The translations under genes and the position numbers were made by a program. Shown piece by piece: positions 1 through 14,054 of a stretch of 14,054 nt of DNA (positions are counted from its first letter, which is position 1; the number at the start of each line of letters is the position of its first letter). The DNA comes from a virus (Duplodnaviria; Heunggongvirae; Uroviricota; Caudoviricetes), in the IMG/VR virus record IMGVR_UViG_3300028988_000038; one strand, given 5' to 3'. The notes beneath the pieces were generated by a model. That model ran no database searches. It had not been told where the DNA came from and saw only the letters and a program-made list of their open reading frames with translations.

Positions 1-64
1 GCACGAATATAATGGTGGGTTACCACCAAACGAATCGGAAAATCGATACTGGAAAAAACTCTAA
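1..64 (+). CDS. IS3-family transposase OrfB, C-terminal fragment (5' partial)
   Basis: Frame starting at base 2 reads [20 protein letters not shown] then TAA at 62-64, identical to the C-terminus of the 272-aa OrfB ORF at 12835-13653. Confidence 0.8.
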   Translation, partial: HEYNGGLPPNESENRYWKKL

Positions 65-94
65 CTCGGTGGCCAGTTTTTGTTGACCACTTCA
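1..94 (+). mobile_element. IS3-family insertion sequence (IS911-like), right-end fragment; the rest lies upstream of the window
   Basis: Bases 1-94 are the exact reverse complement of 12805-12898 in the complete copy (checked by eye over 1-64). The element terminus ends ...GGCCAGTTTTTGTTGACCACTTCA at 94. Confidence 0.85.
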
Positions 95-541
95 CAGATA
101 GATGTGTTCAACGATTGGCTGCGGTGCAATGCTGGCTACCAGCAGCCCGGCCAGATCATCCGCTTCTGCATCTTTTGCAATGAGTTGGGTAACTCCAAGC
201 GCGGTCATCATTTTGAGGATGTATGGCTTCTGGATAGCAAAGCCTTCCTTCATCTTTTTCATATCAGGATCGTCGTCGCGATTTGCTTTGTAGTCCGGGT
301 AAAAGTCGCGACGCTTGTCACTAAATCCATCCCAAAGAATCATAGGTCGGGCATGGAGGATGGAGGCATAACGACGGACGTTCTTAACAAAGCCGAAAGC
401 AGCCTGTACTTCCATTTCGCCGTTGTGCAATTTGTCAGATTGTTGGTGGTAATAACCCAGGCTATTGCCATCTACGAAGAGATAATTCACCGGTACATTC
501 CTTCCAAAAAGTAAGGCGTCCGTAGACGCCTTACTGGTCAC
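92..541 (-). pseudogene. 5'-3' exonuclease / flap endonuclease (T4 RNase H - Pol I 5'-nuclease family), 3'-truncated by the IS insertion
   Basis: Translation carries FEN-type motifs: NYLFVDGNSLGYY, RRDFYPDYKANR and AEADDLAGLLV. The ORF stops about 17 residues after the EADD motif, and the stop codon (92-94) is supplied by the IS terminus, so the C-terminal half of the protein is missing. The true start is probably the GTG at 488-490 (SD GGAAGG at about 499-504) rather than the GTG at 539-541. Confidence 0.65.
506..535 (-). terminator. Intrinsic-terminator-like hairpin downstream of the gp32-like gene
   Basis: Perfect 11-bp inverted repeat, AGTAAGGCGTC (510-520) and GACGCCTTACT (525-535), with a 4-nt loop. 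On the minus strand it is followed by UUUUU (510-506). It lies 16 nt after the gp32-like stop codon. Confidence 0.5.
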
Positions 542-550
542 GTAATGGGA

Positions 551-1579
551 TTACAGAGAGTCCAGCTCTCTCAGTAGGTCATCCAGACCTTCATCTTCCG
601 TCGCAGATGCGGCTGCTACAGATGTCGCTGCGACTGCTTCAGACTCTTTGACTGATACTGCAACGGCAGCGGGACTTGCTTCTGGTTTAAATTCAGTTTC
701 AACGGCACGGAGGATTTCTTCATCAACCAGACTGGTTGGTTCAGAAGCTGGGGTATGAGCGGTAGCTACAGCAGTCGCACCCTCCGTATGACCAGTGACA
801 GAGCCAAATCCAGGTAGTGCCGCAGCCGATGTTTTCGCGGTTGAGGAAATTGCTGGTGCAGATGCTGCGGCAGTTGGTGCAGCGATGCCAATCAGACGAC
901 CCATAGTGCGAACTGTCGACAGAAGACGAGTTTCATCAGCCTGATTTGCGTATGCGATCAGATCATGCTGGGTGTTCCAGAATTTATCTTCGATATCGCC
1001 TTTGTAGACTTTACGCTTAGGCGAGACGTCATATTTGGTATCGCGACCAGAGCCAGTACGTTTAATCAGGAATGCGTAGCCTTCCTCTTTGCTCAGTGGA
1101 TTGCCGATATCATCAGCGATGTCTTCGGTGATTGCTTTGCAGATATCATCGAATACAGTAGACGGCAGCTCGATTAACTGGCATTTCTCAGCATCTGCGA
1201 AATCCTCACGAGCAGAAAGAATGCCGTTGACCAGGTAGCGAGGAGTGGCACGCATTTGACCGATGCGTTCTTCCATTGCTTTGTTACCCTTGTGACGAGC
1301 GCGACCTTCCATCACCATTTCGCATAGCTGACAAGCGCGACCGTGAGTATGTTGCTCACAAATATAAGCGTTGGTTGCTTCTTTACCTTCCTCGTTCTGA
1401 TACTTAACGTAGTGCATACCGAAAGTCTGGAAGAACTTACCGTTTGGGTCGTCTTTATTCGGGAAGATGCGGATATAGTTGACGCCGTCTTTTAAGCGAG
1501 TCAGATCAACGTTGTTACCACGTTTGGCGGCAATGTCTTCACGAGTTTTGTTAAGCAAATCAAGTAATGTCTTAGACAT
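551..1579 (-). CDS. Phage T4 gp32-like single-stranded DNA-binding protein
   Basis: YIRIFPNKDDPNGKFF resembles the T4 gp32 segment I recall as IRFLPSKNDEQAPFA. A Cys-x3-His-x5-Cys-x2-Cys zinc-site pattern (CEQHTHGRACQLC) is encoded at 1322-1360. An Ala/Ser/Thr-rich linker is followed by an acidic C-terminal tail (DEGLDDLLRELDSL) typical of SSBs. Strong SD AAGGAG precedes the ATG. Confidence 0.6.
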   Translation of the reverse strand: MSKTLLDLLNKTREDIAAKRGNNVDLTRLKDGVNYIRIFPNKDDPNGKFFQTFGMHYVKYQNEEGKEATNAYICEQHTHGRACQLCEMVMEGRARHKGNKAMEERIGQMRATPRYLVNGILSAREDFADAEKCQLIELPSTVFDDICKAITEDIADDIGNPLSKEEGYAFLIKRTGSGRDTKYDVSPKRKVYKGDIEDKFWNTQHDLIAYANQADETRLLSTVRTMGRLIGIAAPTAAASAPAISSTAKTSAAALPGFGSVTGHTEGATAVATAHTPASEPTSLVDEEILRAVETEFKPEASPAAVAVSVKESEAVAATSVAAASATEDEGLDDLLRELDSL

Positions 1580-1696
1580 GTGTTTCTCCTTGTTGTGATT
1601 TGGCCGATGGCGCTATGCGCGTTGGGCTTTCGTTCATTCGTGGCTCTTTCGAGCTGTTAAATGATAGATCAGTACTTACTTATTATCTATCAAAAA

Positions 1697-2152
1697 TCAA
1701 CGGGGAGTAATAAAGCGTTCAGAGCCTAATCGCTCTAATTCAACGATGGCCATCTTTGACGCCTGAACGATCATGTCTCGGCGATGCGAAAAGGCGGCGA
1801 CAGCATGTTTGTATATGTCTGCGATGTGCCGTGCTTCATCCAACTTCTGCCTTTTAGACAGATACTGTGGGTTTGTTTTAACCTTAGCGTCCAGTACAGA
1901 TTCGTTGAACTTAATGCCGTTCATACTCAAGTTCTTACGCTCTGTGTCGTATAGCTTTGCTTCAACAGCTTCAAGGTTAAGTTTTGCCTCTGCGACACTT
2001 CTTTCTGCATGAGCGAGTTTTGAGCCATACTCCATTAAAAGGCGGGGTTGTCTACGCCAGACTTCCTCCAGATTGTCTCGGTCAAACTCGAGATCAGACA
2101 TTATTTTCTCGTAAATATCGGCGATCATGCACATTTCCTTATCACTTATCAT
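1697..2152 (-). CDS. Hypothetical protein, predicted coiled-coil, in the replication operon
   Basis: 151-aa ORF co-oriented and tightly spaced between the DnaE C-fragment and the gp32-like gene. The sequence is charged and helical in character; no family is recognised with confidence. Confidence 0.45.
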   Translation of the reverse strand: MISDKEMCMIADIYEKIMSDLEFDRDNLEEVWRRQPRLLMEYGSKLAHAERSVAEAKLNLEAVEAKLYDTERKNLSMNGIKFNESVLDAKVKTNPQYLSKRQKLDEARHIADIYKHAVAAFSHRRDMIVQASKMAIVELERLGSERFITPR

Positions 2153-2254
2153 TTTGTATTGATTATATCATTGTAATGATGAGGCAATGAGCTTGAAGAT
2201 AGGGGGGGTGAGGGGATAAGGGAAAACATGGCCTTTATGGCCATGTTTATTGGA

Positions 2255-3424
2255 TCACGTCTTAATAGTTTCTGCTACGTCGGCTAATATCGCTTCTAGT
2301 CGTTCTCCCTCTTCAGGTCTGAAGTAAAGAATGTTGGGGTTAAACCCGTAAAAGACAGTAACGTCAAGGTCTGGAAGATACTCCTTCCTGCCGACCAAAT
2401 CGGATGGCTTGTTTTTGTTGTTAAACAATGAAGTTGCCCGGCTGCCACACGTCAGCACATAGGTCGGACGCACCAGATTGATCTCTTCACGCATAAAGTC
2501 GGTGAACTGGCCGATCTCGTCTTTGGTGTAGTCTTTTTCTTTGTCTTTAACCTTCTTGCAAACACCTGTGACATAGAGATCGCCCATGCGTAAATCTCCA
2601 GCCGTCAATAGCTTGGCCTTAAAGTCGTCGTATCCGTTCTCCATAAAGTAACCGGTTCGAGCATCATTGCCGTTCGCATTGTCCAGAATGATCATGATTT
2701 TCGGCTTAATACCAATGCTGGGGCGGATTAGTTCATCACCTAAGCCCATTTCAGCCGCCATCCGCGTCATGAGTACGTTAATTTCAGCCGAACGTTTGGG
2801 GTTCATCTCAAACGGACGTGAGGCTTTAACTGCGTCTATGACAAGGTTTCCCATCAATTCAGCCTGGTCGCGTAGGCGCTCTGGATCAGTTGCTGGCAGA
2901 CTGCCTGGCTCGATGGATGCAAACGCCCCTACTTTTTGCAGCGATTCGCGCACTCGACTATTACAGGCACGTTTCTCGACAGCTTCTTCGAATTGCGCCA
3001 GTGACTCGAATTTGCCGCCAACTTTTTCTCGCGCTCTCATGATGGCTTGGCAGCCATTCTCAGAACACCCCTTCACAGCAGAGAAGGGCGCATACAGCAC
3101 CTGGCTGCCATCTTCAAGCGTGCGGATCTCGATTCGGTTAGATGACACGTTAACGTCTGGTGGCAATACGCGAATGCCATAGGTCAGCGCATCTTTAACC
3201 AGCCCCTGGTGTTTATCTTCGCCAAGAATAGTGAGAGCAGCAGCGAAAAACTCTGCGGGATAATGAGTTTTCAACCACATAGATTGATAACTGATTAAGG
3301 AGTAAGCAACAGAGTGTGATTTGTTGAAGGCATACGCGCCGGATTTCTCAAACATATTCCAGATTTCTTCGGCTCGTTCGTGCGTCAGGCCATTGCTCTC
3401 TTCGACAACACCGGTAATTTTCAT
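2255..3424 (-). CDS. dnaE: DNA polymerase III alpha (DnaE family), C-terminal fragment with a degenerate UDG-like C-terminal domain
   Basis: [35 protein letters not shown] matches the DnaE motif [40 protein letters not shown] matches GLKILPPDIN. QAELMG (2849-2866) sits where the internal beta-clamp motif QADMF lies. Residues about 241-389 (2258-2704) follow a family-4 UDG pattern with altered catalytic motifs. Own SD GAGGTG (3430-3435) and ATG at 3422-3424. Confidence 0.8.
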   Translation of the reverse strand: [389 protein letters not shown]

Positions 3425-4155
3425 GCAGTCACCTCATCAATCTTCACGAACTCATACCCATTGGAGGCCAGCCAGTTCCGTTGGCGCTCCCAGCTCCATA
3501 TCTCTTCACGCATTTCACTATGCAGGCGAATGTGGGCGTCTTCTGGAAGTGCTACAAGATTCCCAGGGGCGTTATCTATCGTATCGCGGTTAATATGGTG
3601 GACATGTTCATCGTCACGTAGCTCCCGACCGAGACGTTCTTTCGCTATCAATCGATGAACGTATTCGTATTGCGAAACGCCATTGTTACCAACCAGCTGC
3701 ATCATGTAGCCGTTGGTTTTTACGATGATGCCACCTTTGTAGTTGTTCGCTTCTTCTCCGATCTTTCCGCGTTTGGCAGCCGCCAGCTTTTCCTTCGTCT
3801 CCGCGCGGATTGTTCTGCCGGTTAGCTTTTTCGAAACGGTGGCCACTCGCTCATCGATATCAGCACGCAGACCGGCATTCCACGAGGTTTTCCCATACAT
3901 AGGGTTGCCAGTGCCAGTCCGGGCTTCGGAGAGACGCTTCATACGTTCGTCATTATTTTTGTTTTTGCCACGATTCCAGGCTGGGGTAGCGGAGATCCGC
4001 GCGCTTCCGCGCCTGATCCCCCATTTGGCTAATAAGCGGTCAATATTTGCCTTGCTGCAACCAGCTTCGGCGGCAATGTCTTCTTTTCTCATCAGGTCAA
4101 CCATGTAACGCTGACGTAACCATTCTTCTGTGATTTTGTACTTCGTACTCGGCAT
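3421..4155 (-). CDS. HNH homing endonuclease with N-terminal HTH and NUMOD-like repeats
   Basis: C-terminal HNH motif EHVHHINRDTIDNAPGNLVALPEDAHIRLH. GNPMYGKTSWNAGL and basic repeats resemble the NUMOD-type DNA-binding modules of phage homing endonucleases. N-terminal HTH-like segment DIAAEAGCSKANIDRLLAKWGI. Sits between the two DnaE fragments; its stop overlaps the DnaE-C start (ATGA at 3421-3424). Confidence 0.8.
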   Translation of the reverse strand: MPSTKYKITEEWLRQRYMVDLMRKEDIAAEAGCSKANIDRLLAKWGIRRGSARISATPAWNRGKNKNNDERMKRLSEARTGTGNPMYGKTSWNAGLRADIDERVATVSKKLTGRTIRAETKEKLAAAKRGKIGEEANNYKGGIIVKTNGYMMQLVGNNGVSQYEYVHRLIAKERLGRELRDDEHVHHINRDTIDNAPGNLVALPEDAHIRLHSEMREEIWSWERQRNWLASNGYEFVKIDEVTA

Positions 4156-4203
4156 TTCTAAGACTCACTAAACAAATTGTTTTCTTATCTTATAAATTAA
4201 TTC

Positions 4204-6567
4204 TCAAATATCGAAGCTCGTTATGTCGGCATTTATTGCCATTGCTTCGGCATAAGTGCGACGCTCACCATCAGCACAAAGTAGGCGTGCTGCTTTATGG
4301 ATTTTTCTCGTAGAACCATCATCCAGTGACACTGTCACCCAGCCTTCCTCCGCTCGCTTAATGAAGTCGCCGCCAATGGATTTCATTTTCTCCATATCTT
4401 TTTTCCCGATCGCTTTCCTGACCGAGTCTGCTTCCGCCATTGAGAACCCCGCCAAGATTCGCGTAGCAGCCATGATCTGTTCCTGATAAATCAGAACTCC
4501 GTTTGTGTCGCGAGAGATGTCGTCCAGCATTGGGTGTAAGGAATGTGGGGCCATGAAGCCTTTGGCCACGGACACATAATCGTCCAACATGCCGGATTGA
4601 ATCGGGCCAGGTCGGAAGAGCGCAGTTGTAGCGACGACCGTTTTAAAGCTCATTGGCTCAATTCCACCACCTAAATCTTTAAGCAGCTTGCGCATTGGGC
4701 CTGATTCAAGCTGGAATACGCCCTGTGTATACCCTGCAGCAAAACCATCCAGCACCTTGCGATCTTCAAGAGAAATGGCATCAAGATTGATATCTTCACC
4801 TGTGTTCTCTTTTATGTAGCGTTTTGCACTATCGAGCAAATCGAGAGTTGCCAGGCCAAGCACGTCCAGCTTAATTAGGCCCATAGCCTCGCAGTAACGC
4901 TTGTCAAATGCGATACAACGCGCGTCACCACGGCGTTCAACCGGTGTACGTTCTGTCAGAGGAACACCTGCTACGATCATCCCTGCCGCATGTCTACCAA
5001 AGCCACGCATAAGGCTTTGTAACTTGCAGGCTGCATTGAATGCATCAGGATATTTTGTTGCGTATTTGTCGAGACTTGCCAGTTGTTCGCGCAGCTCTTC
5101 CAATGGAAGGCTATCATCCTCGACGTTCTTCAGTTCTTTTGATACCGCCATATCTGCGGACTCCACACCATAAATACGAGCGGTGTCACGTAGTGCAGAG
5201 GCTGCGCCCAGGTAGGTGAAGTTCGGAATGCCTGCAACGTAATCTTCGCCGTAGCGTTCATTCAGATACTCGATCACCTCATGGCGACGTGCCTGGCTGA
5301 AGTCCAAGTCCGCATCCGGCAAGTCGAGACGCTCAGGGTTGATGAAACGCTCAAACAGAAGACCGTGACGGATTGGGTCGACGTTGGTTATGCCTATGCA
5401 CCACGCCACCAGAGAACCGGCAGAGGAACCACGACCAGGCCCGACAGGAATGCCAGTTTCACGGCTGTGATTCATCAGATCGCGTACCATCAGGAAGTAA
5501 CCACAAAATCCCAGGCGAGTAAGCGTGTCCATTTCGTACTTAAGTCGCTCAACATAAACCCTGTTCTCAGAAGCAGGTGGTGTGTATCCAAACTCTTTTG
5601 TGGTAAGACGTTTACGCAGCCCTGCAACAGCCAGTTTCATCAGCGTTGCAGGTTCGTCGTCTGCCATCTTGGGCAGTGCTGGTGGCAATTCATGCCAGCG
5701 CCATGTGCAGGCATCGATAATGGAGTCCTGCGTTGTTGAGGCCATTGCAGCTGTTACCGGCACATCCATGCGAACGGAGAAGGCTTTAAGCGCCTCAAGG
5801 AGATGGCGACGACCATTGATGGCGTTATCTCGCTGGTGGGGGATACGCAGACGATGCGGCTGGTCGATTTTTATGTTGTTCGTAACCATGTGCGCAATGT
5901 CTTTAATGTCTGCATCGTCGATCGATTCGTAATAAGCGGGATAGAACGCTACTGGCTCTATTTTCAGTGCGCTGGCGACTTTCATCGCCCGGACGTTAAT
6001 CTGGTCGTAGAATGGGGTAGGGTGCGGATAAACCACACTATAGAAGTTGTCTTTTCCACCCGCTGTAATCAGTGTGCTTATGATTTTTGCAAAATCGTTG
6101 CGTTGGAACACGCTACCGATGTCGGAAGTAAGCAGGATGATGTTGCCTTTGGCATATGTAGAAACCAACTGTTCGAGCGAGAGACGCGGTACAAAGTAGA
6201 ACTGTTCTCGTGTGTTGGCCGCCGTCATTAGTTCGCAGATGTCGCGATATCCTTTCTCATTTTTAATTAGAGCGGTAAACGAGTAGTTACGTCCTCGCTC
6301 TAATGATTCCATACATCTCATAGATTCTTTAGCAAGTTTAGCCCGGTGCTCGTATGTGGGATCATCAACAATGTTTAGTTTCACACCACAAATAACCGCC
6401 ATGTCGTCACCAGCGGCACGTTGTAGTGGAATAACGCTCGCAATATTCATGCTATCTGCTGAAATTACAGCGGTGTAGCCAGCTTCTCTGGCAATCTTCA
6501 CCGCGTTTTCTGCTTTTAGAGCCGACTCCCCAAGTGAGAAGTCAGTTCGAACCATCAGTGCCTTCAT
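4204..6567 (-). CDS. dnaE: DNA polymerase III alpha (DnaE family), N-terminal fragment (PHP-like, palm/thumb and part of fingers)
   Basis: [68 protein letters not shown] matches the DnaE active-site region GYFLIV...[18 protein letters not shown]...[35 protein letters not shown] and [30 protein letters not shown] also match. The ORF ends with a 45-aa tail (4207-4341) that has no DnaE homology. Confidence 0.85.
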   Translation of the reverse strand: [787 protein letters not shown]

Positions 6568-6668
6568 GTGTTTTTACCTTTCTGGTTTTTTTGATTTTGT
6601 CATTGGGGAAGCCTACGAACTTCCCATGCATCGAAATCGCAACTTCTTTTGCTGATTGGTGACAATCG

Positions 6669-6695
6669 GGCTTGTCTGGACACACCAGACAAGCC
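6669..6695. repeat. Inverted repeat / hairpin in the CobS-DnaE intergenic region
   Basis: GGCTTGTCTGG (6669-6679) and CCAGACAAGCC (6685-6695), an 11-bp perfect stem with a 5-nt loop, inside a 180-bp spacer in an otherwise tightly packed operon. Confidence 0.5.
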
Positions 6696-6747
6696 TTACC
6701 TGTTTCAGAAGCAGCGATAAGAGAGCCGAAACATCCTTTACGCACGA

Positions 6748-7983
6748 TTAACCAAATATTTTTTGAACAACTTCACGAGCCGCTTGTGCAGAAGCTGAAG
6801 GGAGTTTGTTAATGAAAGAACGCTCAATACCTGTCACAAAGTCGCCTCGCATCATTCCAATCTTGGCTGACAACAAAAGTTCACGAGGGCCAATTGGCTG
6901 ACTAATAAGGTGTTCTTCGTATCCATCGCGAACGATACCGGCAAACTTAACCATCTTTTCAGCGTATTCATCCACGATGCCTGCATTTGTCAACATGTTG
7001 ATCTCTGCGTCTTTGCTCATGTATTTCACATTCGAAACGATGCCAAAACGCGAAAAGTTCGCGGCGTTCTGGATGTTTGTACCCTGGTACAAGCCGGTTT
7101 CATCACCAGATCCGTTCGTGTTGCCAGTGCCAATGAAAGCAAACCGTTCATGCGGAGTAATGCGACGCCATTCTGGAGTTGCCTCTTTGATGACCAACGC
7201 TTCACCTTCCAGCACTGGCTGATACACGCCAAGAATTTGTGGAAACGCAAAGTCGTATTCATCCGCGAGGTAAACCCAGCCATGCTTCATTGCGAGCGCA
7301 AGCAAGCCAGGTTCGAAATACGTAGAGCCATCACGCGCCAGAATTTGCCCCGTAACATGTGCCTCTTCCATTGATGCTGTATGTTGGGCACGGATCAACG
7401 GACGATTGAGCAAAGCACATAGCTGTGTAGGCAATGACGATTTGCCTGTTCCTGCATGACCCCACAAATAGCCAGGTATGCCAAGTTCAAGCATCATGAA
7501 AATATCTTTGATCAGTTCGAAGTCGCCATATACGTAGCCCTTCTTCACTTCTGGAACGAACTCTGGATACGGCGTATTGACGTTGACGCTAACCATGAGC
7601 GGCGTCCCACGTTTTGTTCCGAGTTCTTCCACCGTTACGTTTAGCAGTTCGTGAGCTGCGACCAGATCTGTCTTGTACTCAACTGTGCCTGTGTAGCCAG
7701 GGCTACTGGTCAAGACAGAAGATTTGGCCATTTCGCTTTTTTGCTCGGCACGTTTAGCTTGAATTGCATCAAGTGCCTTTTTCGATAGCGTTGGTTCATC
7801 TGGAAACTGCGTTGTGTACATTTTCAGTACGGTGTCAGGATCGGCATCTTTTACTGACTCAGGAATGCCCTCGCAATTACCATTGGCTACATGGGACTTA
7901 AAATAGTGAAATGATTTGCCGCACCACTTGCAAACAAGGTAATCAGAAGGATTTTTTTCATTTTGCAGTGCAGTAGTCGTCAT
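6748..7983 (-). CDS. CobS-like / MoxR-type AAA+ ATPase (AAA_5) with an N-terminal Cys/His zinc-finger-like motif
   Basis: Walker A GHAGTGKSS (about 7435-7461), Walker B VYLADEYD, and the downstream pattern RFAFIGTGNTNGSG...NFSRFGIVSNVKY typical of CobS/MoxR ATPases. N-terminal CKWCGKSFHYFKSHVANGNC. Confidence 0.7.
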   Translation of the reverse strand: MTTTALQNEKNPSDYLVCKWCGKSFHYFKSHVANGNCEGIPESVKDADPDTVLKMYTTQFPDEPTLSKKALDAIQAKRAEQKSEMAKSSVLTSSPGYTGTVEYKTDLVAAHELLNVTVEELGTKRGTPLMVSVNVNTPYPEFVPEVKKGYVYGDFELIKDIFMMLELGIPGYLWGHAGTGKSSLPTQLCALLNRPLIRAQHTASMEEAHVTGQILARDGSTYFEPGLLALAMKHGWVYLADEYDFAFPQILGVYQPVLEGEALVIKEATPEWRRITPHERFAFIGTGNTNGSGDETGLYQGTNIQNAANFSRFGIVSNVKYMSKDAEINMLTNAGIVDEYAEKMVKFAGIVRDGYEEHLISQPIGPRELLLSAKIGMMRGDFVTGIERSFINKLPSASAQAAREVVQKIFG

Positions 7984-8078
7984 GCGTTTTTCCTTTGTTC
8001 TCTAATGAGCGTTCAACTTCTTATATAAATATATCATTATATATCGTAAGTGGTTACTTATCGTTAAGGCTGTTTTGT

Positions 8079-10187
8079 TCACTTTAAAATGATACGAGAT
8101 AGTTCAGTAACTACAGATGAACCAAGACTATCAACGCTCGTTACCAGGGCATGATTTGAGTAAAATCTCTCCGGTGCGTCAGTCATGATGCCAATTGCCA
8201 TCAAATCAATATCAGTCTGCGTTTCAATTTGCTTCGCAACTGAACGCAAATGAGCGTCAAAACCTCTCCCAACAGCCCACGGCGCGCCATCACTCAGAAC
8301 AAGCATGATCTTCCTGTCCTCCATGCGACCGGAAAATAACGATGCAAGGCTGGCTATGCTTTCACCATCCACGTTATTAAGAAGTGGGAATGTGTAGCCT
8401 ACGCACCCCATACGTGAGCGAACTTCGCGAGAATTTACCTTTTCATTCCAATTTTTGATGATAGGTAGCATTAAAGATTCAAAGCGAGAGAACTCATACT
8501 TGACAGCCTTAAGTTCTCCTGCCGCCATATGACTACCAAATGTAGTGAAGCCGGTGATAATGTTGGGAACATTTATTCGATCAAGGGCATCGGCGATGGT
8601 ATATGCACTTGCAAGAGCCAGTTTAATCGTTATACCACTCATTGAACCTGATAAATCAATCACTTGTTGAACACAGGCGTTAACGGCTTTAGATTCTTCT
8701 TTTTTACGAAACACGCGAGCATCATTCATTGCTAATCTGTAGATACTAGAACCATGAATGCGCCCCCGACGCTGGCCCGGTATAAACTGAACTCTGTTTC
8801 TGCTTGCTATTGCTCGCTCCAGGTCTTTTGCCAGCGTCGACGAAACACCTGACGAAAGATGCTTTTCAATATATTTGTCGAAGAGCTGGTTGCCTTCAGG
8901 AACGATGCGATAGCGGCTGATTGGATATCCTCCCAAATCAATATCGGAGAATGTTTTAATAAGCCGTTTGATATGGGCTTCTGCCTGATCAATCGAGCCG
9001 ATGAAGTCGTATGAGCGATTGTATGGCCTGTATTCGCTTTTCGAGCTTTCTGTTAACTCGCTTTTAATCGTTTCGGATAGAGCATCTTCTGTCATGCCTC
9101 CGACTTCATCTTCTATGCTATCCAGCTCCTCTAAAGCCTCTTCCAGACTCATTTTTGACGGAGTTGGGATATCTGAAGAGCCATCTTCTGTCGTTTTTCT
9201 TTTTTCGTGGTCAGCGGTTAATGATTCTGACGCCGCGTTATCAGAAGCATCAGAATCTGATACCTCTTTATCATTTTCTGTATCATCGAATATTGTTTCT
9301 GATGATTCAGAATTATCTGAATCATCACTGTCGCTATTATCATGTTTGTACTTACTATGTGATTCTGATTTGATAGATTTGTGATTATCTAACACTGAGG
9401 GTGTCTCATGATCTTCGTTGTCTTCATTGTTTTCTCCAGAGGCATCCGTCTGGTCAGCGTCTGAAGGATCGGAAGTTTTTCCCGGAGCTGACTCCTTACC
9501 TTTGCTTTCACTTTCAGTGTCTTTGAGGATCTTAGCTATGGTCGCAGCCACCTTTACACAATCCTCGGTGCAAGACATGTTACGCACGGCCACATCGATA
9601 CCATGTTCTTTTAATAATGAAATTGGTTTCTCAATGACAGGCCAATGTTCATCCATGAAATCTACGAACGGTGCTTGGCCATCCCAGGCTCTTACAACCG
9701 GACAGAGAAAGAAGTTTAGAAAAAGCGCGCGCTGATCTTTGCCACAATAAGCAATAGCCTCTGAAGCCTTTGGTTTAAAGACTTTTTCGATTATAAGGCG
9801 CTGAGTTGCCATCAGATTACGTCTTGTTCCGTTAAAGACCTGACCCATTTTTCGCTCGATGAACACGTCTTCTAAGGCATTCCATAGCGACCAGGAAGGA
9901 ACGCGTCCTTTTTCTCTCATTTTGTTGGACACACGAATATCGGTAAACAAAATGTGAGCAACCTCATGATCGAGAAATCCGCGCACAGCATTCATCAATG
10001 CCGGTGTTGCGTTATCCGGGATTGATGGGATGTTTACGAAAATTGGCTCTCCATCATCGTTATAGCGTACATAAGCGTCGTCCCCTCGTTCTGCAACAGG
10101 GATGTTTTTACCTGAAAGGAGAGCGACTACTCGTTTTACACTGTCACGGAAGTCCTGAACCTCTTTGATGGAACGTTTTTTAGACAT
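8079..10187 (-). CDS. CobT-like protein with a C-terminal von Willebrand factor A domain
   Basis: MIDAS motif DLSGSMSG (8634-8657) and LVLSDGAP in the C-terminal vWA-type domain. Long Ser/Asp/Glu-rich acidic linker (about 9048-9515). N-terminal domain contains HEVAH (9954-9968). Sits immediately upstream of the CobS-like ATPase, as in CobS/CobT pairs. Confidence 0.7.
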   Translation of the reverse strand: MSKKRSIKEVQDFRDSVKRVVALLSGKNIPVAERGDDAYVRYNDDGEPIFVNIPSIPDNATPALMNAVRGFLDHEVAHILFTDIRVSNKMREKGRVPSWSLWNALEDVFIERKMGQVFNGTRRNLMATQRLIIEKVFKPKASEAIAYCGKDQRALFLNFFLCPVVRAWDGQAPFVDFMDEHWPVIEKPISLLKEHGIDVAVRNMSCTEDCVKVAATIAKILKDTESESKGKESAPGKTSDPSDADQTDASGENNEDNEDHETPSVLDNHKSIKSESHSKYKHDNSDSDDSDNSESSETIFDDTENDKEVSDSDASDNAASESLTADHEKRKTTEDGSSDIPTPSKMSLEEALEELDSIEDEVGGMTEDALSETIKSELTESSKSEYRPYNRSYDFIGSIDQAEAHIKRLIKTFSDIDLGGYPISRYRIVPEGNQLFDKYIEKHLSSGVSSTLAKDLERAIASRNRVQFIPGQRRGRIHGSSIYRLAMNDARVFRKKEESKAVNACVQQVIDLSGSMSGITIKLALASAYTIADALDRINVPNIITGFTTFGSHMAAGELKAVKYEFSRFESLMLPIIKNWNEKVNSREVRSRMGCVGYTFPLLNNVDGESIASLASLFSGRMEDRKIMLVLSDGAPWAVGRGFDAHLRSVAKQIETQTDIDLMAIGIMTDAPERFYSNHALVTSVDSLGSSVVTELSRIILK

Positions 10188-10285
10188 GGCTAATCCTTTG
10201 TTATGAAAACAAATTATTTACTAGTGTGTTTAATGTAGCACTGCGCGAACAGGGAACTAAGCCATTCGCGCAGGGAGAAGAGGGG

Positions 10286-10498
10286 TTAACAGATTCTGAC
10301 GGCTAAAGACCCGGAGCCGATATTGAGAAGCGTGAAGCGTTTGTTGTTAAGTTCGAATATAAAGCCAGTTGTGTCATTCACACCAACCTGAATCTGCTCA
10401 TTCGGTAGATCGGTGAGGATGTCAGCTACACACTCATCAGCTAATTTCTGTACGTGTCCGATCTCAAGAGCGATTAGGCTGGAAATAGTGGTGTTCAT
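10286..10498 (-). CDS. Hypothetical small protein (70 aa), first ORF of the leftward operon
   Basis: ORF immediately downstream of the divergent regulatory region and co-oriented with the operon; only a weak SD; no recognisable motif. Confidence 0.35.
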   Translation of the reverse strand: MNTTISSLIALEIGHVQKLADECVADILTDLPNEQIQVGVNDTTGFIFELNNKRFTLLNIGSGSLAVRIC

Positions 10499-10681
10499 TC
10501 AATCAATCCATTCTAACTTATACTATTACTATGGTAAGGAATACTACTAAAATTTATATCAATACTGAATACATTCATATCATATGCAAGTTAATTTTCT
10601 TACCTGTTTTGGGCTAATTTTTCTCCGTGCAATGGCCTTTAACCGGTCTTTTAAGTGCCTATCGAAAAAAATGATAATAGC

Positions 10682-10709
10682 TTTACAACCCTAACCTTTG
10701 ATGTAATAT
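10682..10709 (+). promoter_or_regulatory. Candidate sigma70-type promoter for the XRE regulator gene
   Basis: -35 TTTACA (10682-10687), 16-nt spacer, -10 TAATAT (10704-10709) preceded by TG. SD AAAGG at 10743-10747 and ATG at 10756. Confidence 0.4.
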
Positions 10710-10710
10710 C

Positions 10711-10724
10711 GGTAAGCACTTACC
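10711..10724. promoter_or_regulatory. Candidate operator: 14-bp palindrome GGTAAGCACTTACC
   Basis: Perfect 6-bp inverted repeat with a 2-bp spacer directly downstream of the candidate -10, overlapping the expected transcription start. Matching half-sites GGTAAG (10533-10538) and CTTACC (10599-10604) occur in the same intergenic region. Confidence 0.4.
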
Positions 10725-10755
10725 AGAGAGAATTGAACGCGCAAAGGTTGTAACA

Positions 10756-11142
10756 ATGTCTGACAACAAGATTGAATTTATAGAAAGTCGCTATGCTGCT
10801 TTTATCGCAGGGCTGATTGAATCCTCACCTATGAGTCAGGCCCAAATAGCCAGACTTATTGGTTATAAAAATGCCAACAACCTTTCTTTAATTAAAAGTG
10901 GCAAAATTCCTTTGCCTATCGATAAGGTTCGTCCGTTGGCGCTGGCGCTGGGTATTGAGCCAAGTCGTCTTATGATGATGGTGCTGGAAGAACGCCAACC
11001 TGAACTCGCAGCATTTTTATACAAAGAAGGCACCGCTCCTCTTAACGAGGACGAAAAACAGGTTCTTGCTGCATATAACGAGCGATTCGGTAAAGAGAAA
11101 GGCGCATCACAAAAGGTTGTTGAGGCCATAAAGTCTCTATGA
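10756..11142 (+). CDS. XRE-family helix-turn-helix transcriptional regulator (phage repressor/Cro-like)
   Basis: HTH signature MSQAQIARLIGYKNANNLSLIKSGK. Divergent from the replication operon across a 257-bp AT-rich control region; its 3' end overlaps the integrase 3' end by 6 nt. Confidence 0.6.
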   Translation: MSDNKIEFIESRYAAFIAGLIESSPMSQAQIARLIGYKNANNLSLIKSGKIPLPIDKVRPLALALGIEPSRLMMMVLEERQPELAAFLYKEGTAPLNEDEKQVLAAYNERFGKEKGASQKVVEAIKSL

Positions 11143-12240
11143 AAAATTTACACGAATAAGCTCTGTTGATAGACGATCTCCCTTGAATTTGTGGTCAATT
11201 TCGTCTAAATCCGGTTGCTCTACGATTGATGCGATGTACGTCGAGAAACTTTCTAAGGCGTCTCGCATCTCGTCCATATAATCGTGCCGGTCGTAGACTC
11301 GATCTATCCCCTCAAGACTGTGGTTCATGATTTTGCGTGATACCTCCTGGCTTATGCCTAATGCTGGGAAGTAACTACGCGCAGTGCGGCGCAAGTCTCG
11401 GGGTGTAAATGGCTCAAGCTCCATCAGTTCTGGTCGTTCCAGAATACGACGTAATGCCTGGGCTATTGCCACTTTAGACATAGGAAGGTCTTTCCCGATT
11501 TTTTTATTCGAAGGCACGAGCCACTGGCTGCCTTTACCGTATTCGAACAACTCTTCAATGCATGTGCGCATTAATGAGCTTAAAGGCAGAGAATGCTCAC
11601 GGGCAGATTTGTTCCTCTTGCCTTGATTCCAAACCCCACGCTTAAGATTGAACTCACTTTTTTTAGCCCGCAGTACTTCGTCAGGTCGTCTTGCGGATAC
11701 AAGACATAGCCTGGCCGCCCATTTTGTACCAGCACACACATTGAAGTAGTCCCATATATTCCAGAACACCCATACCTCTGCGTCGGTTAGCTTCCGCTCG
11801 CGAGGTGTGGGCTTTGCGCCACCGGCAACTTTGTTAAGTGACATATCGTTTAACGGTGACACGTCGATCATCCCCTGGAAGGCGCACCAGCTGAGGAACT
11901 GCTTCATCAGAGAGAAAACGCGGCGACCCATAACAATTTTGCCATCCAGTATTAGTGGGTTGACCAGTTGGTTCACCATGAACCTATTAATATCACTTAC
12001 TTTTACATCGGCAATGTGCGGCAAAACATGTATCAAAATACAATGAACAGCGATCTCTGGCCGACGTCTTGTTATCAGCAGAGATAAGCGAGTGAATAAC
12101 ATGAATGCGTCCGAGAATCTCATGTCATTGCTGACCTGGGAGATCATAACGGCCTGCATTTGAGATGCTCTTTCGAGATACTCAATCGCCTCTTTTGAGG
12201 TGTTCTCCGCAGCGCGTGCTCTGTCAAAGCTATTTTTCAT
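11137..12240 (-). CDS. int: Tyrosine recombinase / phage integrase
   Basis: C-terminal catalytic-domain pattern: an ARRPDEVL segment aligning with the box I Arg region, PRDLRRT aligning with box II, and NHSLEGIDRVYDRHDY with the candidate catalytic Tyr. 367 aa. Confidence 0.75.
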   Translation of the reverse strand: MKNSFDRARAAENTSKEAIEYLERASQMQAVMISQVSNDMRFSDAFMLFTRLSLLITRRRPEIAVHCILIHVLPHIADVKVSDINRFMVNQLVNPLILDGKIVMGRRVFSLMKQFLSWCAFQGMIDVSPLNDMSLNKVAGGAKPTPRERKLTDAEVWVFWNIWDYFNVCAGTKWAARLCLVSARRPDEVLRAKKSEFNLKRGVWNQGKRNKSAREHSLPLSSLMRTCIEELFEYGKGSQWLVPSNKKIGKDLPMSKVAIAQALRRILERPELMELEPFTPRDLRRTARSYFPALGISQEVSRKIMNHSLEGIDRVYDRHDYMDEMRDALESFSTYIASIVEQPDLDEIDHKFKGDRLSTELIRVNFS

Positions 12241-12285
12241 ATGACAATCACCGAGTTACGCCGATGCACTGTATAAGTAAACAGT

Positions 12286-12314
12286 ATATTAGGCATAGAT
12301 TCTTATAGGATCAA
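12286..12314 (-). promoter_or_regulatory. Candidate sigma70-type promoter for the integrase gene
   Basis: On the minus strand: -35 TTGATC (12309-12314), 17-nt spacer, -10 TAATAT (12286-12291), about 45 nt upstream of the integrase ATG (12238-12240). Confidence 0.35.
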
Positions 12315-12338
12315 GAGTAAAAGTAACTCATTTTCAGT

Positions 12339-12371
12339 AATGATTCCATACATAGTAGGTATGGAATCATT
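12339..12371. repeat. 13-bp perfect palindrome (AATGATTCCATAC / GTATGGAATCATT) with a 7-nt loop
   Basis: Arms at 12339-12351 and 12359-12371, followed on the plus strand by GTAGGCC and a T6 run (12379-12384). Upstream of the integrase promoter. Confidence 0.5.
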
Positions 12372-12490
12372 GTAGGCCTTTTTTATAAAATCTGTGATTC
12401 TTCTCAGGATAAATTATCTAAACTAAAAATTGTGTTTTGTGTTGGCATCTGCTTGAATAGACGCATGTTTATTCAGATATGGAATAATCA

Positions 12491-14018
<1,528 letters not shown>

Positions 14019-14054
14019 CTCTGTTCAGGTGGCCAAATTCAGTAAACCACTTCA
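14019..14054. repeat. IS terminal inverted repeat (left end, IRL)
   Basis: Reverse complement reads TGAAGTGGTTTACTGAATTTGGCCACCTGAACAGAGG; the window ends exactly at the last base of the element. Confidence 0.8.

What the first reader, a model, noticed from the sequence alone, without database searches (positions are those of the whole stretch)
488..553. Terminator-like hairpin between the gp32-like gene and the exonuclease; the annotated exonuclease start is probably wrong
An 11-bp perfect stem (510-520 / 525-535) followed by UUUUU on the minus strand lies 16 nt after the gp32-like stop. It falls inside the 5' extension of the 92-541 ORF, whose predicted GTG at 539-541 has no SD. An in-frame GTG at 488-490, preceded by GGAAGG, gives the typical FEN N-terminus (M-NYLFVDGNSL). 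The hairpin could terminate or attenuate transcription after the SSB gene, with the exonuclease expressed only by read-through, or it could be an RNA processing or stability element.
Basis: seen in the sequence. Interest (0 to 1): 0.4.

Follow-up and report, generated by a model that had tools for sequence, protein, structure and literature searches.

The report
Conserved terminator hairpin after phage SSB gene
The hairpin is real and is an ordinary, deeply conserved terminator-type RNA stem-loop at the 3' end of a phage-plasmid's single-strand-binding-protein gene.

Summary
The window is part of an E. coli SSU5-like phage-plasmid, about 99.9% identical to phage CMS-2020a and 98.8% to Cyrano. 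It has an 11-bp perfect stem (535-525 / 520-510), a UACG loop and a U5 run at 510-506. The SD GGAAGG (505-500) and GTG (490-488) follow.

It is not chance: 0.03 perfect stems of 11 bp or more are expected per window. Relatives show compensatory stem changes, and loop changes stay within UNCG. Among 61 distinct gp32-like SSB loci, 54 carry a stable hairpin in the SSB-exonuclease spacer. Where a homing endonuclease has inserted between the two genes, the hairpin stays with the SSB gene.

The best reading is a leaky Rho-independent terminator and 3' stabiliser of the SSB message, as found after T4 gene 32.

The 490 start is confirmed. It is conserved as GTG, ATG or TTG, the upstream GTG is lost in several lineages, and frame-breaking indels lie between the two candidates. 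RefSeq, Cyrano and SSU5 already annotate it.

An IS911-like element interrupts the exonuclease after codon 132 and supplies its stop codon.

The feature is ordinary and of low interest.

The parts
551..1579 (-). gp32-like SSB gene (342 aa), with TAA stop at 553-551
   Evidence: Pfam gp32 PF08804, E = 1.7e-66, covering the full model. Annotated 'SSB T4 gp32-like' in Cyrano.
536..550 (-). 15-nt spacer between the SSB stop and the hairpin
   Evidence: A stop-to-stem distance of 15-26 nt is typical across lineages.
510..535 (-). Hairpin: 5' arm 535-525, UACG tetraloop 524-521, 3' arm 520-510
   Evidence: Sequence and energies. Covariation: 4 pairs change on both sides, 91.7% of cells are paired against 32-56% in slid controls, and 0 of 500 shuffles reach the observed value. 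The loop varies only as UACG, UUCG or UGCG.
506..510 (-). U5 tract (T510 is shared with the stem), followed by GG
   Evidence: Tail score is -4.57, whereas only 0.3% of random positions score -4 or lower. The run is T6 in L015, L030 and L080.
500..505 (-). Shine-Dalgarno GGAAGG for the exonuclease
   Evidence: Unchanged in 12 of the 13 sequence variants of the close SSU5-clade relatives (TGAAGG in L080); GGAG in the divergent lineages.
488..490 (-). True exonuclease start codon (GTG)
   Evidence: It matches the annotated start in Cyrano, SSU5, PhiR41_1 and RefSeq plasmids, 61 nt after the SSB stop.
539..541 (-). Upstream in-frame GTG: a longest-ORF artefact, not a start
   Evidence: No SD precedes it. 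It is replaced by GTA or GAG in relatives, and frame-breaking indels lie downstream of it.
95..487 (-). Exonuclease codons 2-132: a 5' fragment of a 314-aa FEN-type 5'-3' exonuclease
   Evidence: Pfam 5_3_exonuc_N is cut at model position 118 of 164, and the H3TH domain is absent. Full-length Cyrano carries both domains. The Cyrano sequence continues ...IYL-LTGDSD where the window reads IYL-stop.
1..94 (-). Terminal inverted-repeat end of an IS911-like (IS3-family) element. Its first three bases, TGA (94-92), form the stop codon of the truncated exonuclease ORF.
   Evidence: 97-99% identical to IS911 or transposon features in phages Sf6, SfII and SEN22. It forms an inverted repeat with 12800-12898. 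Homology to intact plasmids begins at 91-94.

Best explanation
The hairpin is a Rho-independent, terminator-type stem-loop belonging to the 3' end of the gp32-like SSB gene of an SSU5-like phage-plasmid.

Proposed mechanism (inferred):
- RNA polymerase transcribing SSB forms a very stable C(UACG)G-capped 10-11-bp hairpin 16 nt after the stop codon. This is far enough for a terminating ribosome not to block folding.
- The hairpin is followed by a short U5 tract.
- Because the U tract is short and runs straight into the exonuclease SD, termination is probably partial.
- Terminated transcripts give a monocistronic SSB mRNA whose 3' end the hairpin protects from exonucleases.
- The read-through fraction carries the FEN-type exonuclease, whose SD and GTG (490-488) lie 5 and 20 nt beyond the stem.
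- The net effect would be much SSB and little exonuclease from one promoter.

What is shown and what is inferred:
- Shown: the structure, its covariation, its conservation, its linkage to the SSB gene, and the start codon.
- Inferred: termination, its efficiency, and the stabilising role.

In this particular window the downstream exonuclease is an IS-disrupted pseudogene.
For: - Anatomy and energetics. The element is not expected by chance.
- Within the SSU5 clade, four stem pairs show compensatory changes. L010 changes four pairs on both sides (A:U to G:C, A:U to C:G, U:A to A:U, G:C to A:U); L130 changes three. 91.7% of cells are paired, and 0 of 500 shuffles reach this.
- Loop substitutions stay within the UNCG class.
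- All 17 lineages whose spacers were folded individually, the distant ones sharing only 35-44% exonuclease identity with a distant reference exonuclease (L110/L111, itself 37% identical to Cyrano's), carry unrelated stem sequences at the same place. 14 of the 17 have at least 5 T in the 8-nt tail, against a null of 1.3%.
- In a wider survey of 61 unique SSB loci, 54 have a hairpin of -10 kcal/mol or stronger in a 59-87-nt spacer. Of these, 40 have at least 4 T in 8 and 32 have at least 5 T in 8. Coding-window controls gave 31, 3 and 0 of 304.
- Natural experiment: in L217 and L225 a NUMOD4/HNH homing endonuclease sits between SSB and the exonuclease. The hairpin with its T run stays directly after the SSB stop, and no terminator-type hairpin with a T run precedes the exonuclease start.
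- The scan found no sigma-70-like promoter on the coding strand anywhere downstream of the one just upstream of the SSB gene, and the 20 nt between stem and start leave no room for one.
- Published gene-level RNA-seq of the 98.8%-identical Cyrano (PMC9928086, S1 Table) gives SSB above exonuclease in 9 of 10 samples. Median FPKM is 8.6 against 1.4, Wilcoxon p = 0.004.
- T4 gene 32 has the same layout: stop, 22 nt, a 7-bp GC stem, then U6AUUUU. Predicted terminators after gene 32 are conserved in 5 of 6 T4-like genomes (PMC1524935).
Against: - No 3'-end mapping exists, so termination is not shown.
- The U tract is short: 4-5 U followed by GGAAGG. The tool's consensus scan did not flag the site.
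- One clade of relatives, the L116-like group, has 15-18-bp stems without a clear U tract. The hairpin rather than termination may therefore be the conserved function.
- The Cyrano RNA-seq values are near the noise floor, come from the lysogenic state, and are gene-level only.
- In the same data the downstream RecA-like gene is higher than the exonuclease (median 11.2). It is therefore not fed only by read-through.
Confidence: 0.68

Rival explanations
1. The hairpin is purely post-transcriptional. It would act as a 3'-exonuclease barrier or processing site that stabilises the upstream SSB segment of a polycistronic mRNA, with no transcription termination.
For: Hairpins are nearly universal at this position (54 of 61 loci), but T-rich tails are not (32-40 of 61). 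The L116-like clade has long stems with GNRA or UUCG loops and no U tract. UNCG-capped stems are exceptionally stable (established knowledge).
Against: In the window's own clade and in most others the T run is co-conserved with the stem, far above background: at least 5 T in 8 nt in 14 of 17 and 32 of 61 loci, against 0 of 304 controls. The T run lengthens to T6 in some relatives and never shortens.
Confidence: 0.2
2. The hairpin mainly regulates translation of the exonuclease. It might do so by positioning or occluding the SD, or by decoupling the exonuclease from SSB translation.
For: The stem ends only 5 nt before the SD and 20 nt before the start. The stem-to-start distance is 19-25 nt in 12 of the 17 lineages whose spacers were folded individually.
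Against: The SD is not paired in the predicted folds. When a homing endonuclease is inserted, the hairpin stays with SSB and the exonuclease has none.
Confidence: 0.05
3. The upstream GTG (541-539) is the real start, and the hairpin lies inside exonuclease coding sequence.
For: The frame is open from 541. One Klebsiella phage record annotates the equivalent ATG. One IMG/VR contig (L041) has GAG in place of the 490-equivalent GTG.
Against: The upstream codon is GTA or GAG in several lineages. One-nucleotide indels break the frame in L015 (5 loci), L030, L050 and L080. No SD precedes it. The Pfam domain starts at residue 3 of the short form.
Confidence: 0.03
4. It is a DNA-level palindrome, such as a protein-binding or recombination site, or a chance inverted repeat.
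For: The inner 6 bp, GGCGTC/GACGCC, is almost invariant in the SSU5 clade (one G:U in L010).
Against: Distant lineages keep the structure with unrelated sequences. G:U pairs occur, which work only in RNA. The T run lies on the transcribed strand only. The element is single-copy in each genome. Chance expectation is 0.03 per window.
Confidence: 0.03

Closest known systems
Rho-independent terminator downstream of bacteriophage T4 gene 32, conserved in T4-like phages
   Same: It follows a gp32-family SSB gene on the transcribed strand, with a GC-rich stem about 16-22 nt after the stop and then a U tract. T4 reads stop, 22 nt, GGGGACC-CUAGA-GGUCCCC, UUUUUUAUUUU. Predicted terminators after gene 32 are conserved in 5 of 6 T4-like genomes (PMC1524935).
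   Different: The T4 terminator has a long U tract and is followed by about 100 nt that include the region upstream of frd.3. Here the U tract is only 5 nt and runs straight into the SD of the next gene. Read-through is therefore needed for downstream expression, and termination is expected to be partial. The stem sequences are unrelated.
Intra-operon attenuating terminators, for example E. coli rpsU-dnaG-rpoD T1 and the rplL-rpoB attenuator (own knowledge, not tested here)
   Same: A hairpin with U tract lies between an abundantly needed first gene and a downstream enzyme gene needed at low level, with no intervening promoter.
   Different: Those examples have measured termination efficiencies. 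None has been measured here.
C(UNCG)G tetraloop intercistronic hairpins of T4 mRNAs (Tuerk et al. 1988, own knowledge)
   Same: The loop is C(UACG)G. Relatives carry UUCG or UGCG, and UUCG is the commonest loop (16 of 54) across the family.
   Different: That is a structural class rather than a functional family. Membership says nothing about termination.
REP/BIME-type intercistronic stabiliser hairpins, for example malE-malF (own knowledge)
   Same: An intercistronic stem-loop that could protect upstream mRNA from 3' exonucleases.
   Different: REP elements are dispersed repeats. This hairpin is single-copy in each genome and was not found in unrelated phages.

Membership tests
Intrinsic (Rho-independent) terminator | GC-rich stem of about 5-14 bp with a 3-8-nt loop | tested here: met
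   11-bp perfect stem with 6 G:C pairs and a 4-nt UACG loop. The GC-closed hairpin is -17.4 kcal/mol.
Intrinsic (Rho-independent) terminator | U-rich tract of about 7-9 nt immediately 3' of the stem | tested here: inconclusive
   U5 (one U shared with the stem) is followed by GGAAGG. The TransTermHP-style tail score of -4.57 is far beyond background, but the tool's criterion of at least 5 T in 8 nt after the full stem is not met.
Intrinsic (Rho-independent) terminator | Lies downstream of a stop codon on the transcribed strand, clear of the terminating ribosome | tested here: met
   The stem starts 16 nt after the TAA of the SSB gene, on the same strand. The T run is on that strand only.
Intrinsic (Rho-independent) terminator | Hairpin and U tract conserved at the orthologous position, with covariation | tested here: met
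Intrinsic (Rho-independent) terminator | RNA 3' ends generated at the U tract in vivo or in vitro | not testable with these tools
   Only gene-level RNA-seq of Cyrano is available: SSB exceeds the exonuclease in 9 of 10 samples.
FEN-type 5'-3' exonuclease (Pfam PF02739 plus PF01367) | Complete N-terminal resolvase-like domain | tested here: not met
   The window ORF matches model positions 2-118 of 164 only. Full-length Cyrano matches 2-159.
FEN-type 5'-3' exonuclease (Pfam PF02739 plus PF01367) | C-terminal H3TH/SAM-fold domain | tested here: not met
   Absent from the window ORF and present in Cyrano at residues 174-244. The window copy is a truncated pseudogene of a genuine family member.
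IS3-family insertion sequence (IS911-like) | Terminal inverted repeats starting TGAAGTGG, orfA (HTH_Tnp_1) and orfB (rve), about 1250 bp | tested here: met
   The copy at 12805-14054 has both ends (TGAAGTGGTCAAC... and ...GTAAACCACTTCA), with HTH_Tnp_1 in the 112-aa ORF and rve in the 272-aa ORF. It is 97-99% identical to annotated IS911 or transposon sequences.
IS3-family insertion sequence (IS911-like) | 3-4-bp target-site duplication flanking one copy | not testable with these tools
   The window ends at or inside the IS copies, so the outer flanks are not available.

The most novel reading that the evidence does not exclude
The hairpin could be a regulated attenuator that is part of an ancient, conserved gp32-SSB / hairpin / FEN / recombinase expression module. 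This module would be shared by SSU5-like phage-plasmids and a large set of environmental phages of about 100 kb. In the plasmid (lysogenic) state the hairpin would confine expression to SSB. On induction, a phage factor (an antiterminator or the SSB itself) would override it to turn on the exonuclease and recombinase.
Probability: 0.1. Interest if true: 0.45.

Novelty: new member of a known kind. Interest (0 to 1): 0.2.

Why it matters
The practical consequences are mostly for annotation:
- It fixes the exonuclease start at the codon RefSeq already uses.
- It flags the longer start used in a Klebsiella phage GenBank record (MK422451.1) as wrong.
- It adds an unannotated terminator feature to a widespread family of phage-plasmids (SSU5, pMT1 of Y. 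pestis, Cyrano).
- It shows that this window's exonuclease is an IS-disrupted pseudogene.

Biologically, it gives a simple and testable explanation for how these elements make much SSB and little FEN nuclease from one promoter. It also shows that the terminator-after-gp32 layout known from T4 extends to a very different phage group.

Tried and rejected
- An Rfam scan of window 1-2400 at E up to 1 gave only two chance miRNA hits elsewhere and nothing at the hairpin.
- The consensus terminator scan did not list the site in the window or in Cyrano, because of its T-count rule. It did list the orthologous hairpin in the distant locus L111 as its top hit.
- The genome-contig scan returned only 4 close loci.
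- A 7-sequence SSB alignment was too divergent for pattern search, so it was replaced by a 4-sequence one.
- Literature searches for 3'-end or operon data on SSU5, pMT1 or pHCM2 found no transcript mapping.
- One possibly relevant 2026 preprint is not held.
- A search of complete E. coli genomes for the exonuclease::IS junction found none.
- I considered stop-codon read-through fusing SSB to the exonuclease, because the two share a frame here. I rejected it because spacer lengths in relatives are not multiples of three: 58, 61, 62 and 64 nt.
- I considered a dispersed repeat and rejected it, because the element is single-copy in each genome.

Full report
**Context.** The window is a segment of an E. 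coli SSU5-like phage-plasmid. Positions 91-1700 are 99.9% identical to Escherichia phage CMS-2020a, 99.6% to PhiR41_1, 98.8% to Cyrano and 81% to Salmonella phage SSU5. Positions 91-12807 are collinear with many 108-113-kb E. coli plasmids. The genes around the finding lie on the minus strand. They are a UvsY-like gene (2152-1697), a gp32-like SSB (1579-551; Pfam gp32, E = 1.7e-66) and a FEN-type 5'-3' exonuclease.

**Observation.** The minus strand reads as follows:
- TAA at 553-551, then 15 nt of spacer.
- AGTAAGGCGTC (535-525), UACG (524-521), GACGCCTTACT (520-510).
- TTTT (509-506), GGAAGG (505-500), 9 nt of spacer, GTG (490-488).

The stem is 11 perfect pairs closed by a C(UACG)G tetraloop. 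The run of five T begins with the last stem base.

Energies:
- -25.9 kcal/mol for the 81-nt context, z = -2.67.
- -22.2 kcal/mol for the 60-nt spacer, reached by 0 of 300 shuffles.
- -17.4 kcal/mol for the GC-closed hairpin.

Perfect stems of 11 bp or more are expected 0.03 times per shuffled window. The tool's consensus terminator scan did not list the site, because fewer than 5 T fall in the 8 nt after the full stem.

**Start codon.** Five lines of evidence favour 490-488:
- Cyrano, SSU5, PhiR41_1 and the RefSeq plasmids from Enterobacter, Yersinia pestis (pMT), Cronobacter and Klebsiella all annotate a 314-aa exonuclease starting 61 nt after the SSB stop, which is the homologue of 490. Only Klebsiella phage ST13-OXA48phi12.3 uses the upstream codon.
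- Across about 100 related loci, the 490-equivalent codon is GTG in most, ATG in L010 and L130, and TTG in L168.
- The 541-equivalent codon is GTA in the Cronobacter-type lineages, GAG in L080 and L081, and ATG in Klebsiella.
- One-nucleotide indels between the two candidates break the frame: T5 to T6 in L015 (5 loci), L030 and L080, and a deletion in L050.
- Pfam 5_3_exonuc_N model position 2 aligns with residue 3 of the short protein and residue 20 of the long one.

The one exception is L041, which has GAG at the 490-equivalent position.

ORF 92-541 is not a whole gene. Window 1-94 is the terminal inverted-repeat end (TGAAGTGGTCAACAAAAACTGGCC...) of an IS911-like IS3-family element. It is 97-99% identical to annotated IS911 or transposon features. 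A full 1.25-kb copy lies inverted at 12805-14054, with HTH_Tnp_1 and rve ORFs.

Cyrano reads ...VEHIYL-LTGDSD at this point. The window reads ...VEHIYL followed by TGA, and that TGA (94-92) is the first three bases of the IS. The product stops after residue 132. It lacks the end of the N-domain and the whole H3TH domain. None of the 5,426 complete E. coli genomes searched carries this junction. In this copy the exonuclease is a pseudogene.

**Is the hairpin functional?** Within the SSU5 clade, the 50 nt from hairpin to start codon are almost invariant, while the flanking coding sequence diverges by about 20%. Where the stem does vary, it co-varies:
- L010 changes four pairs on both sides; L130 changes three.
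- L063 and L104 show G:U replacements.
- Overall, 91.7% of cells are paired against 32-56% when partners are slid. Four pairs have double changes, and 0 of 500 shuffles reach the observed covariation score.
- Loop changes stay within UNCG: UACG, UUCG and UGCG.

In distant relatives (35-44% exonuclease identity to the reference L110/L111) the stem sequences are unrelated, but a stable hairpin sits in the same 58-113-nt spacer in all 17 lineages whose spacers were folded individually. In 14 of them it is followed by at least 5 T in 8 nt. The background frequency of such tails is 1.3%.

A wider survey used 80 gp32-like SSB loci from IMG/VR:
- The SSB-exonuclease spacer is 59-87 nt in 70 of 76 loci.
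- 54 of 61 unique loci have a hairpin of -10 kcal/mol or stronger.
- 40 of those have at least 4 T in 8, and 32 have at least 5 T in 8.
- Control coding windows gave 31, 3 and 0 of 304.
- UUCG is the commonest loop.

**Which gene owns the hairpin?** Two loci, L217 and L225, carry a NUMOD4/HNH_3 homing endonuclease inserted between SSB and the exonuclease. In both, the hairpin with its T run remains directly after the SSB stop. The exonuclease then follows the endonuclease without a terminator-type hairpin and T run of its own. The element therefore belongs to the 3' end of the SSB gene, not to the exonuclease leader.

**Mechanism.** The co-conservation of stem, T-rich tail, strand and distance from the stop codon is the signature of an intrinsic terminator. 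Three points argue that termination is partial and that downstream expression depends on read-through:
- The U tract is short and followed by GGAAGG.
- Only 20 nt separate the stem from the exonuclease start.
- The scan found no sigma-70-like promoter on the coding strand downstream of the one just upstream of the SSB gene.

The terminated RNA would end in a UNCG-capped stem, which is a good 3'-exonuclease barrier (established knowledge). Gene-level RNA-seq of Cyrano in LF82 is consistent with this. FPKM back-calculated from log2(FPKM+5) gives SSB above the exonuclease in 9 of 10 samples, with medians of 8.6 and 1.4 (PMC9928086 S1 Table). These values are near the noise floor and come from the lysogenic state. 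In addition, the downstream RecA-like gene is higher than the exonuclease, so it must have another source of transcripts.

One clade of relatives has long stems without a U tract. A pure stability or processing role therefore remains a live rival.

**Comparison with known systems.** T4 gene 32 has the same architecture: stop, 22 nt, GGGGACC-CUAGA-GGUCCCC, UUUUUUAUUUU. Predicted terminators after gene 32 are conserved in 5 of 6 T4-like genomes (PMC1524935). The difference here is that the tract is short and abuts the next gene's SD. This resembles intra-operon attenuators such as the one between rpsU and dnaG (own knowledge). The hairpin is not a dispersed repeat: it occurs once per genome and only in SSU5-like phages. 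No public record annotates it. Rfam has nothing at the site.

**Verdict.** The feature is an ordinary, unannotated member of a well-known class, so interest is low. The most useful corrections are two. First, the exonuclease here is IS-truncated. Second, the hairpin is an SSB 3'-end element conserved far beyond this family.

Noticed in passing
window 1-94 and 12805-14054: There are two inverted copies of an IS911-like IS3-family element, one partial at the left window edge and one complete ending exactly at the right edge. Both right-end inverted repeats face the 12.7-kb phage-plasmid segment. The left copy disrupts the exonuclease and the right copy disrupts a hypothetical gene that is intact in NZ_CP022167. 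No complete E. coli genome has the exonuclease::IS junction. This could reflect two insertions, an IS-mediated inversion, or contig ends at repeats.
   Followed up: partly
window 2258-6567 (minus strand): The DnaE-like DNA polymerase III alpha gene is split. A 787-aa ORF (PHP, NTPase and finger domains; 6567-4207) and a 389-aa ORF (HHH_6; 3424-2258) are separated by a free-standing HNH_3/NUMOD3 homing-endonuclease ORF (4155-3424). Cyrano and PhiR41_1 have a single gene of about 1170 aa.
   Followed up: partly
window 2224-2248, 6669-6695, 9300-9327, 12339-12371: Four more perfect hairpins of 10-13 bp occur, where 0.1 would be expected. Two sit just downstream of minus-strand genes but lack a T run. 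One lies inside the CobT-like ORF. One 13-bp stem lies between the integrase gene and the IS.
   Followed up: no
window 1661-1689 (minus strand): The only sigma-70-like promoter match upstream of the SSB gene (TAGATA-17-TATCAT) is embedded in an ATAGAT...ATCTAT inverted repeat, which may be an operator. In the Cyrano RNA-seq, SSB and UvsY levels do not co-vary, which suggests that SSB has its own promoter.
   Followed up: no
L217 2381-2899 and L225 2336-2920: NUMOD4/HNH_3 homing endonuclease genes are inserted precisely between the SSB terminator hairpin and the exonuclease start in two environmental relatives. They reuse the SD position just after the T run.
   Followed up: partly
L191-L204 (IMG/VR relatives): One clade of relatives replaces the short terminator-like hairpin with 15-18-bp stems capped by GNRA or UUCG loops and with no clear U tract. 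These may be processing or stability elements rather than terminators.
   Followed up: no
L041 1495-1500: One IMG/VR contig has GAG instead of GTG at the exonuclease start. This may be a sequencing error, a pseudogene, or use of the upstream GTG in that genome.
   Followed up: no
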